A DNA stretch of 32,444 nucleotides from a virus (Duplodnaviria; Heunggongvirae; Uroviricota; Caudoviricetes). Position numbers: made by a program. Positions 30,001 to 32,444 of the stretch are shown piece by piece. Position 1 is the stretch's first letter, and each line of letters starts with the position of its first letter. The stretch spans positions 1 to 32,444 of IMG/VR virus record IMGVR_UViG_2859821903_000002, one strand, 5' to 3'.

Positions 30001-32444
30001 AACTCCGGGAGAAGTAAACGACAGCTGTTGTAGTTTCTGGTTTCTACTGAATTTAAATTGTGGGGTGACACTCACCCCACGCATTCAGAAGGGGGAGATG
30101 AGATGGGGGTAACATCGGGATGGGTAGGCTCTTCGGCTAAGAGCGAAACAGGTGAGCAGTGGATGGGAGCCGCCGGAACCAAACTGGGACTGAGTAAACC
30201 TTTTATGATGAGCCAAATGGTTGGGCGAACTATGGGCTGTAAAATTGCAACTGAGTACTATAAATGGAAATCCTCTGACAAGGTTGATAACTGGGGCGCA
30301 GTTGGCGCTGACTGGCCTTTAGAAGAAAAAAGTAAAGGTACAATTACAAACGCCGCAAGCTGCGGATCAGGGAGGCTGGTAGGGGCTGTCGTTACACTTT
30401 CTCACTTTTTGACGAACTCTACACCGACAGCTGCTGTTTATTTAGCCGGTGGTAAAGCAGGTAACATCACCGTAAACGTAGGTGGTGCTACACAAACCAT
30501 GATTTATCAGGGCGTTGTTAGTGGGTTCCAGTATTACTGGTCAGGTTCTGTTAGTTCCGCTTTCGTGGAGGCAATGAAAAAGACGGGAGTACCCCAGGAT
30601 CTAAAAATTAGTTAAATGGTAAATAAATAATTTTAAAAACTTCACGTTCTACATACCGGAGACGCCGGATATATAGGATATTGTTTTAAGTTGCCAGAGA
30701 AATTTTTCCGGACGGATGCTGATAATAATGATGTGCCAATGACGGCAGCATCATTGATGGCACTGAGTGAAGCGACAGAGCAGGCGATGTTTGCGAAGGG
30801 AGTGGAGATTAATACACGGCAGTTGCAGATGAAAGCCGAGGTTGAGGCGCTGACAGACCTGAAGGCGATCCGCAGTTATGTTGTCGGATGGCCTGCTGGC
30901 TGAATAAAAAAACGGGACCACGACCAGTCCCGGAACCATGAGTTTTAGGGTATTAGTTTGTTATCATAGTTAGCGTGCTAAGTATGCCATGTCAGGTTGA
31001 TTAGTGAAGTGATGTTGTTCGCATTTTTGCACGGCGGAGAATATTCAGATTTTTGGAAATCCATATTTTTCCCGTGCGCGATTACATGCTTCATTTACGA
31101 TGCTATTTTCGCCGGACATTGCGAATTCCCTGCATGTGGACGGTTTTTGTAAACAGAGCAATATGCGTTTTCTCCGGGGGGGGCCGGCAAGAGCGCCACA
31201 TCGGGGATTTTTCTGATTGGTGCCGCGCATACAGCGATGAAAAGGAGATATTTGCTCAGTGAGACTGACCGAAACCTTTCCGCCAGCATCGTCAGTTTCT
31301 GCCCAGTAAAAAGAGACGCGGAAAATGCACAACAGGCACCACACGTCATGCATGGATTCAGATTGCTCATAATTCACCAGTACAGCTATAAATCGTAAAG
31401 AGAACAGCGGTACATCGTATGTAAGAACGTACCGCGGCTGGCTGGTGAACTTCCGATAGTGCGAGTATTGAATGATTTCCAGCCGTTACAGATTTTACGT
31501 GCTAATTAGTGAACAAACCACTCGTCAGCAGACTCCCAGGTATCTTTCAGAGTTTCCTGAACAAAAGTTTTAGCTGAATCTTTATCGGCGGTGCGCGTAA
31601 CAGAAAGGCCATCGTTGCTGGTAGCTTTTACGATCACCTCTACATCGTCATAACGTTTACTGATGCGTCGGGTTAATTCTTCCTTTAACGCATCCACAGC
31701 ACCGGTTGGCATTTTAGTCATTTTTTCTTTGGCTATGCAGATTTCAATACGCATAAAAGTCCCTCTACACTGTGTTTGTATACAGTATCATTTTTGACTG
31801 TATGGATAAACAGTATCAAGGGTGAAGGAAAGTGATTTTTTGGGGCATGCATGGGGCAAAAATATTTGTTGTGGGGCATTTTGGGGCATGATTGGGACAC
31901 TTTGTTACATATGAACTTTGCCGATTTTTATATGACATGGAAATACAACGCTTTGATTCTTCTAAATAAAAAACATGCTCTTGGGCGTTCTTTAGTGATT
32001 TTTAAAAATTCCGTATCACGCAGTTAAAGTGGCGGGCATACTCTTCAAGGCTGGTAATCCCCAACCGCACCCATTTAGGGTGCGACCATTGCGGTAGACC
32101 GATGTAAATCATAACGCGTGAAGGATCTCTTCCACGCTACGCACACGGGCGATGCGCGGGTAGATATGATTAATGCTGTTATTGTGTTGCTCGGCGCTGG
32201 CGGCACTACAGGCGTCTTCGGCAATCACCAGATTAAAGCCAAGTTCCCAGGCATTGCGGGCGGTGGATTCAACACCGATATTGGTCGAGATCCCACATAA
32301 CACTATTGTATCGATACCTCGGCGGCGCAGTTGCAACTCCAGATCCGTACCGTAAAACGCACCCCACTGACGTTTGATGATTTCGATATCACTGTCAGTT
32401 GCACCTAATGCAGCTGGATGTTGCCACCAGTTTTCGGGCAACAC

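What the first reader, a model, noticed from the sequence alone, without database searches (positions are those of the whole stretch)
31506..31816. DinI-family gene under two tandem LexA boxes
Two CTGT-N8-ACAG boxes at 31769-31788 and 31797-31816 lie directly upstream of the minus-strand dinI-like gene. This predicts tight SOS control of a prophage-borne RecA modulator at the prophage end.
Basis: partly seen in the sequence, partly recalled or inferred. Interest (0 to 1): 0.45.

Follow-up and report, generated by a model that had tools for sequence, protein, structure and literature searches.

The report
SOS-controlled prophage DinI gene, two LexA boxes
A small gene at the end of a lambda-like prophage encodes a DinI-type RecA-binding protein, and its promoter carries two strong binding sites for the DNA-damage repressor LexA; the module is real but ordinary, being present in about a third of complete E. 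coli genomes and partly annotated in GenBank.

Summary
Two CTGT-N8-ACAG palindromes lie at 31770-31785 and 31798-31813. They are the only two in the 32-kb window. Each matches the 20-bp LexA consensus at 16 of 20 positions. None of 200 simulated windows produced a site this good.

They lie over a sigma-70-like promoter (-35 TTGATA, -10 AAAAAT) that reads into the minus-strand ORF 31506-31754. That ORF is an 82-aa DinI-family protein: Pfam E = 1e-19, 46% identical to E. coli DinI. All eight RecA-contact residues are identical or conservatively replaced.

The prophage/chromosome junction in yecE lies about 200 bp further on, at about 32017.

Both boxes are kept in 58 of 58 related viral contigs and in more distant phages (VT1-Sakai, PhiR12_2; weakened in BP-4795). 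Chromosomal dinI and the Gifsy-type phage dinI genes have one good box.

The module occurs in 1785 of 5426 complete E. coli genomes. The VT1-Sakai GenBank record already annotates the proximal box as a "putative SOS box" and marks a putative promoter upstream of it.

Unlike the Gifsy operon, no antirepressor gene follows dinI. Only a terminator-like hairpin and a frameshifted ykgJ-like remnant follow.

LexA binding and SOS induction were not tested here. Novelty is low.

The parts
31506..31754 (-). DinI-like CDS, 82 aa ([12 protein letters not shown]...[10 protein letters not shown])
   Evidence: ORF list. Pfam PF06183 DinI, E = 1.1e-19. PDB 1ghh/7ywa DinI, E = 3.7e-13. 46% identical to E. coli DinI. 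NCBIfam DinI equivalog scores 73 bits against a cut-off of 111, so it is a paralogue. RecA-contact residues are conserved (with PMC9926225).
31760..31765 (-). Shine-Dalgarno sequence GAGGGA, 5 nt before the ATG
   Evidence: Read directly from the sequence. The AGAGGGA stretch is present in all close relatives.
31768..31787 (.). Proximal LexA box (core CTGT-N8-ACAG at 31770-31785); gene strand TACTGTATACAAACACAGTG. It lies just downstream of the -10 and covers the predicted transcription start (about 31783).
   Evidence: It corresponds to the 'putative SOS box' annotated in VT1-Sakai. Conserved in 58 of 58 loci.
31790..31795 (-). Predicted -10 hexamer AAAAAT
   Evidence: Promoter scan. Invariant in the alignment of five divergent phages.
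31796..31815 (.). Distal LexA box (core 31798-31813); gene strand TACTGTTTATCCATACAGTC. It fills the promoter spacer and overlaps the last two bases of the -35.
   Evidence: Conserved in 58 of 58 loci. In VT1-Sakai and mEp460 this stretch lies inside the feature annotated as the promoter and is not annotated as a LexA site.
31814..31819 (-). Predicted -35 hexamer TTGATA (TTGACA in most relatives)
   Evidence: Promoter scan. TTGACA in 52 of 58 relatives. Sequence conservation between otherwise unrelated phage arms starts exactly here.
31390..31435 (-). Terminator-like hairpin GCGGUACGUU-(9 nt)-GAUGUACCGC (31407-31435) followed by the U-rich tail UGUUCUCUUUACGAUUU
   Evidence: RNA fold. The simple terminator scan did not call it, so it is weak or partial.
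31045..31377 (-). ykgJ-like cysteine-cluster gene, frameshifted remnant downstream of dinI
   Evidence: Two overlapping ORFs in different frames. PGAP annotates the near-identical O104:H4 locus as 'YkgJ family cysteine cluster protein, frameshifted'. VT1-Sakai H0002 is 'similar to E. coli K12 YkgJ'. Pfam and NCBIfam gave no hit for the fragments.
31841..31899 (+). Cluster of four TGGGGCA repeats plus one TGGGACA, between the promoter and the att junction. These are probably integrase arm-type sites and are context, not part of the SOS module.
   Evidence: The same motif occurs upstream of dinI in VT1-Sakai and BP-4795.
32002..32112 (-). Stump of yecE (first 36 codons). Homology with uninterrupted yecE starts at about 32017, which marks the prophage/chromosome junction.

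Best explanation
This is a LexA-repressed, single-gene accessory module at the attachment-site end of a lambda-like prophage inserted in yecE.

**Shown by sequence analysis.** A sigma-70-type promoter (-35 TTGATA at 31819-31814, 18-nt spacer, -10 AAAAAT at 31795-31790) drives the minus-strand dinI-like gene. One LexA operator fills the promoter spacer. A second lies immediately downstream of the -10, over the predicted transcription start. Both score like proven E. coli SOS operators.

**Inferred regulation.** In undamaged cells two LexA dimers occupy the promoter and block RNA polymerase, so basal expression is very low. After DNA damage, RecA filaments trigger LexA self-cleavage and both operators clear. 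A roughly 29-nt leader with a good ribosome-binding site then lets the 82-aa protein be made. The box centres are 28 bp apart, about 2.7 helical turns. I therefore expect independent occupancy that multiplies repression, rather than the contact cooperativity of the overlapping colicin boxes.

[quoted passage not shown] All eight experimentally defined contact residues are identical or conservatively replaced. In that groove it would stabilise filaments and also compete with LexA, UmuD and CI-type repressors, which use the same RecA elements. The likely role is to tune the strength or timing of RecA-dependent cleavage during prophage induction. Whether the net effect favours or damps induction is not known.

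Most transcripts probably end at a hairpin about 70 nt past the stop codon. Any read-through enters a dead ykgJ-like gene.
For: - Box positions and scores.
- Promoter and geometry. The mEp460 and VT1-Sakai records annotate the same promoter.
- DinI family membership.
- RecA-contact residues L13, L21, W71, W77, F78, E24, E69 and D76 of DinI (PMC9926225) map to M15, L23, W73, W79, F80, E26, D71 and E78.
- Conservation of both boxes: 58 of 58 IMG/VR loci with 27-28 bp spacing; also VT1-Sakai and PhiR12_2, and weakened in BP-4795.
- Phage dinI homologues with a LexA box in Gifsy-1, -2 and -3 are induced 4.6- to 23-fold by nalidixic acid (PMC8072944). The Gifsy-2 DinI homologue accumulates after mitomycin C, and the Gifsy-2 LexA-box region is required for mitomycin-dependent prophage induction (PMC3121763).
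- Prophage end.
- Terminator-like hairpin.
Against: - No experiment on this locus or its E. coli relatives was found. There are no LexA binding data, no mapped transcription start and no expression data.
- The -10 hexamer is weak (AAAAAT, 4 of 6) and the spacer is 18 nt, so the promoter assignment rests on consensus and conservation only.
- The heterology matrix was built from sites recalled from memory, and only 7 of the 26 were verified.
- The protein scores below the NCBIfam cut-off for true DinI (73 against 111 bits).
- Deleting the Gifsy dinI homologues had no significant effect on the level or rate of prophage induction (PMC3121763), so a role in induction may be subtle or absent.
- The 28-bp spacing puts the two dimers on different faces of the helix, so 'tight' cooperative repression is not guaranteed.
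Confidence: 0.85

Rival explanations
1. The locus is a Gifsy-type induction switch: a LexA-controlled operon whose real payload is a small antirepressor that inactivates a non-cleavable prophage repressor, with dinI as a passenger first gene.
For: In Gifsy prophages dinI is the first gene of a LexA-regulated operon and is followed by the antirepressor gfoA/gftA and then irsA (PMC3121763). The same layout (dinI, then a small ORF, then a NinB/DUF1367 gene) appears in Klebsiella, Aeromonas and Salmonella phages.
Against: No ORF of 20 aa or more lies on the gene strand in the 128 bp between dinI and the ykgJ-like remnant. That interval holds a terminator-like hairpin instead. The next gene is a frameshifted ykgJ-like remnant, not a NinB/DUF1367 gene. 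The 82-aa clade sits next to att/int rather than downstream of the replication genes as the Gifsy dinI does. The protein aligns to DinI over its full length, with no extra domain.
Confidence: 0.04
2. The two palindromes are not LexA operators. They are chance AT-rich palindromes, or binding sites for a phage protein such as integrase, Xis or a repressor in the att arm.
For: The loose 16-mer pattern alone gave two or more matches in 10 of 100 shuffles. The site lies within about 200 bp of the att junction, next to repeats that look like integrase arm sites.
Against: Scored over the full 20 bp, no simulated window came close (0 of 200). Both boxes keep every CTG/CAG base across 58 loci and across phages whose sequence upstream of the -35 is unrelated, including phages with a different integrase arrangement. 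Boxes sit just upstream of dinI genes in Gifsy-2, SEN34 and Klebsiella and Aeromonas phages and of chromosomal dinI, and the Gifsy ones are proven SOS loci.
Confidence: 0.03
3. The operators mainly control something other than dinI: for example a plus-strand transcript running towards the att site, or read-through from int in the excised phage. That would link SOS to excision or integration rather than to RecA modulation.
For: A weak plus-strand promoter-like site (TCTACA-16-TATCAT, 31764-31791) overlaps the proximal box. In the circular phage the promoter lies directly downstream of int/attP; in mEp460 the int stop codon overlaps the dinI promoter.
Against: Nothing coding lies downstream on the plus strand before the chromosomal junction. 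The only ORFs there are short and cross the att junction. Promoter-like hits in this region are no more frequent than in shuffles (3 found against 2.5 expected). The conserved block starts at the -35 and runs into dinI, whatever lies upstream.
Confidence: 0.05

Closest known systems
dinI-like gene H0001 of Stx1 prophage VT1-Sakai (GenBank AP000400), and identical or near-identical genes in mEp460, cdtI phage, SKA5, PhiR49_2 and many Stx-converting phages
   Same: The same 82-aa DinI clade (95-100% protein identity). In the prophage records examined (VT1-Sakai, the E. coli O104:H4 yecE prophage) it holds the same position, after the tail-fibre genes and next to the att junction; in the phage genome mEp460 it lies next to int. 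A ykgJ-like remnant lies downstream in VT1-Sakai and in the O104:H4 yecE prophage. In the relatives whose upstream region was read (VT1-Sakai, mEp460) the -35/-10 and both CTG-N10-CAG elements are kept. The VT1-Sakai record annotates the proximal box as 'putative SOS box' and a 'putative promoter of H0001 and H0002'. mEp460 annotates the promoter.
   Different: Those records do not annotate the distal box as a LexA site; it lies inside their 'promoter' feature. The window copy has TTGATA rather than TTGACA at -35. Its boxes are closer to consensus than those of VT1-Sakai (about 6.3 and 6.3 against about 9.7 and 8.3). The integration site is yecE rather than yehV.
Chromosomal dinI of E. coli K-12 (b1061)
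   Same: A small RecA-filament-binding protein under LexA control. It is 46% identical, with the same length class and the conserved WESAD(D/E)WF C-terminal helix and RecA-contact residues. A LexA box lies just upstream of the ribosome-binding site.
   Different: The chromosomal gene has one box (ACCTGTATAAATAACCAGTA); the phage copy has two. The phage protein scores below the equivalog cut-off. It is carried on a mobile element, with 1-7 copies per genome.
LexA-regulated dinI-antirepressor-irsA operon of Salmonella Gifsy prophages (Lemire et al. 2011, PMC3121763)
   Same: [quoted passage not shown] SOS induction has been demonstrated there.
   Different: The Gifsy-type DinI is 77 aa and 42% identical. 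It has a single box of about 4 on my index. It is followed by the antirepressor and a roughly 200-aa gene in the irsA position, and it sits downstream of the replication genes. Here there are two boxes, no antirepressor and an att-proximal position.
Tum of coliphage 186
   Same: A LexA-controlled phage gene with DinI-like sequence (PMC3121763).
   Different: Tum is 146 aa and has an N-terminal antirepressor half. The window protein is DinI-only (82 aa, aligned end to end with DinI).
Multi-operator SOS promoters (lexA, recN, colicin operons)
   Same: More than one LexA box over a single promoter, which in those genes is associated with low basal expression (PMC2994835; PMC8072944).
   Different: Colicin boxes overlap each other, and the two lexA boxes are 21 bp apart. 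Here the box starts are 28 bp apart, with 8 bp between the 20-mers, so direct dimer-dimer contact is doubtful.

Membership tests
E. coli-type LexA (SOS) box | Palindromic CTGT-N8-ACAG core (CTG-N10-CAG) | tested here: met
   Two exact matches, at 31770-31785 and 31798-31813.
E. coli-type LexA (SOS) box | Closeness of the whole 20-mer to TACTG(TA)5CAGTA, with a heterology index in the range of sites known to bind LexA | tested here: met
   16 of 20 matches each. Approximate index 6.26 and 6.28, against 2.4-11.9 for the 26 reference sites. 0 of 200 simulated windows reached 7. The matrix was built from recalled sites, 7 of which were verified in MG1655.
E. coli-type LexA (SOS) box | Position overlapping the core promoter or transcription start of the regulated gene | tested here: met
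   The distal box fills the spacer between -35 (31819-31814) and -10 (31795-31790). The proximal box begins 2 nt after the -10. The promoter is predicted, not mapped.
E. coli-type LexA (SOS) box | LexA binding, and derepression on DNA damage that depends on RecA and on cleavable LexA | not testable with these tools
   Only indirect evidence: Gifsy phage dinI homologues with one such box are SOS-induced (PMC3121763; PMC8072944).
DinI family (Pfam PF06183) | Score above the Pfam gathering threshold over the whole domain | tested here: met
   70.9 bits against a cut-off of 24.2, covering profile positions 1-63 of 63.
DinI proper (NCBIfam NF007893 equivalog) | Score above the equivalog cut-off | tested here: not met
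   73 bits against a cut-off of 111. It is therefore filed as a DinI-like paralogue, not as the orthologue of chromosomal dinI.
DinI family (function) | RecA-contact residues: hydrophobic pocket L13, L21, W71, W77, F78 and acidic patch E24, E69, D76 | tested here: met
   They map to M15, L23, W73, W79, F80, E26, D71 and E78: five identical and three conservative (residues from PMC9926225).
DinI family (function) | Binding to and stabilisation of RecA filaments; modulation of co-protease activity | not testable with these tools
   No biochemical data were found for this clade.
Gifsy-type LexA-controlled antirepressor operon | A small antirepressor ORF (about 60-80 aa) immediately downstream of dinI | tested here: not met
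   No ORF of 20 aa or more on the gene strand in 31378-31505.
Gifsy-type LexA-controlled antirepressor operon | A third gene in the irsA position (annotated NinB/DUF1367 in relatives) | tested here: not met
   The downstream gene here is a frameshifted ykgJ-like remnant. The Gifsy-type layout is seen.
186 Tum-type antirepressor-DinI fusion | An N-terminal antirepressor domain fused to the DinI-like half (about 146 aa) | tested here: not met
   The protein is 82 aa and aligns to DinI residues 1-79 from its own residue 1.
Colicin-type double SOS operator | Two overlapping LexA boxes | tested here: not met
   The 20-mers are separated by 8 bp and their starts are 28 bp apart. The colicin arrangement is described in PMC2994835.

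The most novel reading that the evidence does not exclude
The phage DinI-like protein is a dosage-sensitive competitor for the RecA filament groove, kept silent by a double operator. Once released, it would set the threshold or timing of CI-type repressor cleavage, and so of prophage induction and Shiga-toxin release. On this reading the number of such prophage copies in a genome (1 to 7) tunes how a polylysogen responds to DNA damage. The second operator would then have been selected to keep this extra dinI dosage harmless in undamaged cells.
Probability: 0.15. Interest if true: 0.5.

Novelty: already known. Interest (0 to 1): 0.14.

Why it matters
It matters little as a discovery. SOS-controlled dinI homologues on lambdoid prophages were annotated in the VT1-Sakai GenBank record and studied experimentally in Salmonella Gifsy prophages. 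This exact protein is common in E. coli.

Two modest points may be useful:

- **The second operator.** The E. coli att-proximal clade consistently carries a second LexA operator inside the promoter spacer. The VT1-Sakai and mEp460 records label that stretch only as 'promoter'. SOS-regulon and prophage-induction predictors that count LexA boxes should expect it.
- **The open biology.** Many pathogenic E. coli carry several copies of a protein that occupies the same RecA groove as LexA, UmuD and CI. The effect of that gene dosage on induction and toxin release has not been measured.

Tried and rejected
- **Gifsy-like antirepressor operon.** I looked for a small ORF between dinI and the next gene and found none.
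- **irsA as the ykgJ-like gene.** I guessed that the Gifsy irsA gene might correspond to the ykgJ-like gene here. This is rejected. The gene in the irsA position of Gifsy-type loci is about 200 aa and is annotated NinB/DUF1367 in relatives. Equating that gene with irsA is my inference from gene order.
- **Genome-contig scan.** Scanning with the single protein returned only four E. coli/Shigella loci and added no diversity. Diversity came from a tblastn search of the phage collection instead.
- **Domain searches on the ykgJ-like fragments.** Pfam and NCBIfam gave nothing usable. The identification rests on the PGAP and VT1-Sakai annotations of homologous loci.
- **Literature search for E. coli prophage dinI.** I looked for expression, LexA binding or phenotype data (papers read). 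Only chromosomal dinI data, genome-wide association mentions and the Salmonella work turned up.
- **A bioRxiv report.** It describes lexA and dinI being 'lost' together with Stx prophages. It concerns chromosomal loci, and I judged it not informative.
- **The simple terminator scan.** It did not call the hairpin after dinI. RNA folding did find it, so I describe it only as terminator-like.
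Full report
**What is in the sequence**

The window contains exactly two CTGT-N8-ACAG palindromes, at 31770-31785 and 31798-31813. 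Framed as symmetric 20-mers they are 31768-31787 and 31796-31815.

Read on the minus (gene) strand they are TACTGTATACAAACACAGTG and TACTGTTTATCCATACAGTC. Each matches the published consensus TACTG(TA)5CAGTA (PMC6590174) at 16 of 20 positions, with all CTG/CAG bases intact.

The minus-strand ORF 31506-31754 (82 aa, ATG start) begins 13 nt after the proximal 20-mer. A GAGGGA ribosome-binding site precedes it at 31765-31760.

**Is it more than chance?**

The loose 16-mer pattern is not rare on its own. It is expected 0.44 times per window, and 10 of 100 shuffles gave two or more matches.

I therefore scored full 20-mers with a heterology-index matrix built from 26 E. coli K-12 LexA sites. I recalled these sites from memory. 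Seven of them (recA, lexA 1 and 2, dinI, sulA, umuDC) were then confirmed verbatim at the expected promoters in MG1655. My index also correlates with the published values I remember (r = 0.94), but those values also come from memory.

The two boxes score 6.26 and 6.28, like the lexA, uvrA and dinI operators. They are the two best sites in the 32.4-kb window; the next best scores 12.4. In 200 first-order Markov simulations of the window no site scored 7 or better, and the best ever seen was 8.5. Two such sites 28 bp apart, directly in front of a dinI homologue, are not chance.

**The gene**

| Test | Result |
|---|---|
| Pfam DinI (PF06183) | E = 1.1e-19, full-length domain |
| Solved structures | DinI (1ghh, 7ywa), E = 3.7e-13 |
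| Identity to K-12 DinI | 46% over the whole length |
| NCBIfam DinI equivalog | 73 bits, cut-off 111 |

The last row makes it a DinI-like paralogue rather than the orthologue of chromosomal dinI.

The cryo-EM study of RecA-DinI (PMC9926225) defines the contacts. They are a hydrophobic pocket (L13, L21, W71, W77, F78) that receives RecA F203, and an acidic patch (E24, E69, D76) that faces RecA K232, R243 and K245. In the window protein these positions are M15, L23, W73, W79, F80, E26, D71 and E78. Five are identical and three are conservative. Binding to the RecA filament groove is therefore a well-founded inference.

**The promoter and the geometry**

The only promoter-like site that reads into the gene is TTGATA (31819-31814), an 18-nt spacer, then AAAAAT (31795-31790). 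The distal box fills the spacer and overlaps the last two bases of the -35. The proximal box starts 2 nt after the -10 and covers the predicted start, near 31783.

I aligned five phages whose upstream arms are partly unrelated: the window, an O104:H4 prophage, VT1-Sakai, BP-4795 and PhiR12_2. Outside the phages that share an arm, conservation begins at the -35 hexamer, and AAAAAT is invariant. The mEp460 and VT1-Sakai records annotate a promoter at the same place.

Box starts are 28 bp apart (27 in one locus; about 29 in VT1-Sakai and BP-4795). That is about 2.7 helical turns. I therefore expect two independently bound dimers that both occlude RNA polymerase, not colicin-style overlapping operators (PMC2994835). 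This is inference.

**Surroundings**

Downstream of dinI there is no ORF of 20 aa or more on the gene strand for 128 bp. The interval holds a 10-bp-stem hairpin (31407-31435) followed by a U-rich tail.

Next comes a ykgJ-like gene split over two frames (31045-31377). PGAP annotates it as frameshifted in the near-identical O104:H4 locus, and the VT1-Sakai record calls its counterpart 'similar to E. coli K12 YkgJ'.

On the other side of the promoter, homology with uninterrupted yecE begins at about 32017. The first 36 codons of yecE remain at 32002-32112, and yecD follows. The module is thus the last gene of a lambdoid prophage inserted in yecE, whose late genes (terminase, portal, capsid, tape measure, tail-tip protein J) fill most of the rest of the window.

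Between the -35 and the junction lies a cluster of TGGGGCA repeats. The same motif precedes dinI in VT1-Sakai and BP-4795. These are probably integrase arm sites.

**Relatives**

The identical protein is encoded on at least 80 IMG/VR contigs. The 325-bp module occurs in 1785 of 5426 complete E. coli genomes, with up to 7 copies per genome. It also occurs in many Stx1-, Stx2- and cdt-converting phages.

All 58 IMG/VR, Shigella and E. coli loci with enough upstream sequence keep both CTG-N10-CAG elements. Variation falls mostly at outer or spacer positions. More distant members of the 82-aa clade keep two boxes (approximate index):

| Phage | Distal box | Proximal box |
|---|---|---|
| VT1-Sakai | about 9.7 | about 8.3 |
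| PhiR12_2 | 4.4 | 7.6 |
| BP-4795 (distal box degraded) | about 10 | about 9.9 |

A Klebsiella member of the clade has one box.

The 77-aa Gifsy-type clade (Gifsy-2, SEN34, and Klebsiella and Aeromonas phages) has a single strong box. There dinI is followed by a small ORF and a NinB/DUF1367-type gene. This matches the dinI-antirepressor-irsA operon described by Lemire et al. (PMC3121763).

Chromosomal K-12 dinI has one box. A transcriptome and LexA-box survey of Salmonella lists its chromosomal dinI with a second, very weak box (PMC8072944).

**How it most likely works**

- **Shown here:** two operator-quality LexA sites over a conserved promoter for a DinI-family gene at the prophage end.
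- **Established for homologues:** the Gifsy-1, -2 and -3 dinI homologues are upregulated 4.6- to 23-fold by nalidixic acid. The Gifsy-2 DinI homologue accumulates after mitomycin C, and the Gifsy-2 LexA-box region is required for mitomycin-dependent prophage induction.
- **Inferred for this locus:** LexA keeps the gene off. DNA damage clears both operators. The protein then loads into the RecA groove, where it stabilises filaments and competes with LexA, UmuD and CI-type repressors, which use the same groove elements. In this way it would modulate RecA-dependent cleavage while the prophage is being induced.

The direction of the effect is unknown. For E. coli DinI, stabilisation dominates at stoichiometric levels and inhibition dominates at excess (PMC6590174). 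Non-polar deletions of the Gifsy-1 and Gifsy-3 dinI homologues had no significant effect on induction.

A second operator is a plausible way to keep additional, multi-copy dinI dosage silent in undamaged cells. That is speculation.

**Rivals**

- **A Gifsy-type antirepressor switch.** Excluded by the missing ORF, the different downstream gene and the different position.
- **Chance palindromes or sites for a phage recombination protein.** Excluded by the statistics and by conservation that is independent of the integrase arm.
- **Control of a plus-strand or int read-through transcript.** This has only a weak consensus hit in its favour and nothing coding downstream.

**Comparison with the known, and verdict**

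The closest known item is the same module in VT1-Sakai. Its GenBank record annotates the proximal box as a putative SOS box and marks a promoter for the dinI and ykgJ homologues.

The only increment here is that the stretch annotated as 'promoter' in VT1-Sakai and mEp460 also holds a second, conserved LexA operator that is characteristic of the E. coli att-proximal clade.

I found no experimental work on this clade in E. coli. The feature is already known in kind and essentially in detail, so interest is low.

Noticed in passing
window 31841-31899: Four exact TGGGGCA repeats plus one TGGGACA lie within 59 bp, between the dinI -35 and the yecE junction; only two other copies occur in the whole window. 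The same motif (TGCCCCA on the gene strand) precedes dinI in VT1-Sakai and, as ATTGATGCCCC repeated at least four times, in BP-4795. It is absent from PhiR12_2 and mEp460-type phages. These are probably integrase arm-type sites of the att region. The motif occurs here with yecE as the insertion site and in VT1-Sakai with yehV.
   Followed up: partly
window 31045-31377 (-): A ykgJ-like cysteine-cluster gene (CxxCxxCC start [14 protein letters not shown]) is split over two reading frames, so it is a frameshifted pseudogene. Homologous loci are annotated the same way, and relatives are decayed or truncated to varying degrees.
   Followed up: partly
window 32002-32112 (-) and about 32017: The first 36 codons of yecE survive as a stump next to yecD. 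Homology with intact yecE starts at about 32017, which places the prophage junction (an att site inside yecE) there.
   Followed up: yes
window 29682-30903 (+): The tail-fibre end is a mosaic: an endosialidase-chaperone (Peptidase_S74) domain ORF, a Gp38-like adhesin N-terminal domain ORF and a short DUF4376 fragment. This suggests recombination or truncation of host-range genes just upstream of the dinI module.
   Followed up: no
window 31472-31573 (+): A 33-aa plus-strand ORF overlaps the 3' end of dinI. PGAP annotates an ORF at this position as a 'hypothetical protein' in the O104:H4 genome. It is probably a spurious call.
   Followed up: no
L092, L094, L095, L096 (Klebsiella ST13-OXA48phi12.4, Gifsy-2, Aeromonas pAEv1818, Salmonella SEN34): A second, 77-aa phage DinI clade shares a fixed layout across four genera: one strong LexA box, then dinI, a 63-79-aa ORF and a NinB/DUF1367-type gene. 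This is the Gifsy antirepressor operon layout. Yersinia phage YeP3 dinI has no box within 200 bp and appears to be co-transcribed with an upstream gene.
   Followed up: partly
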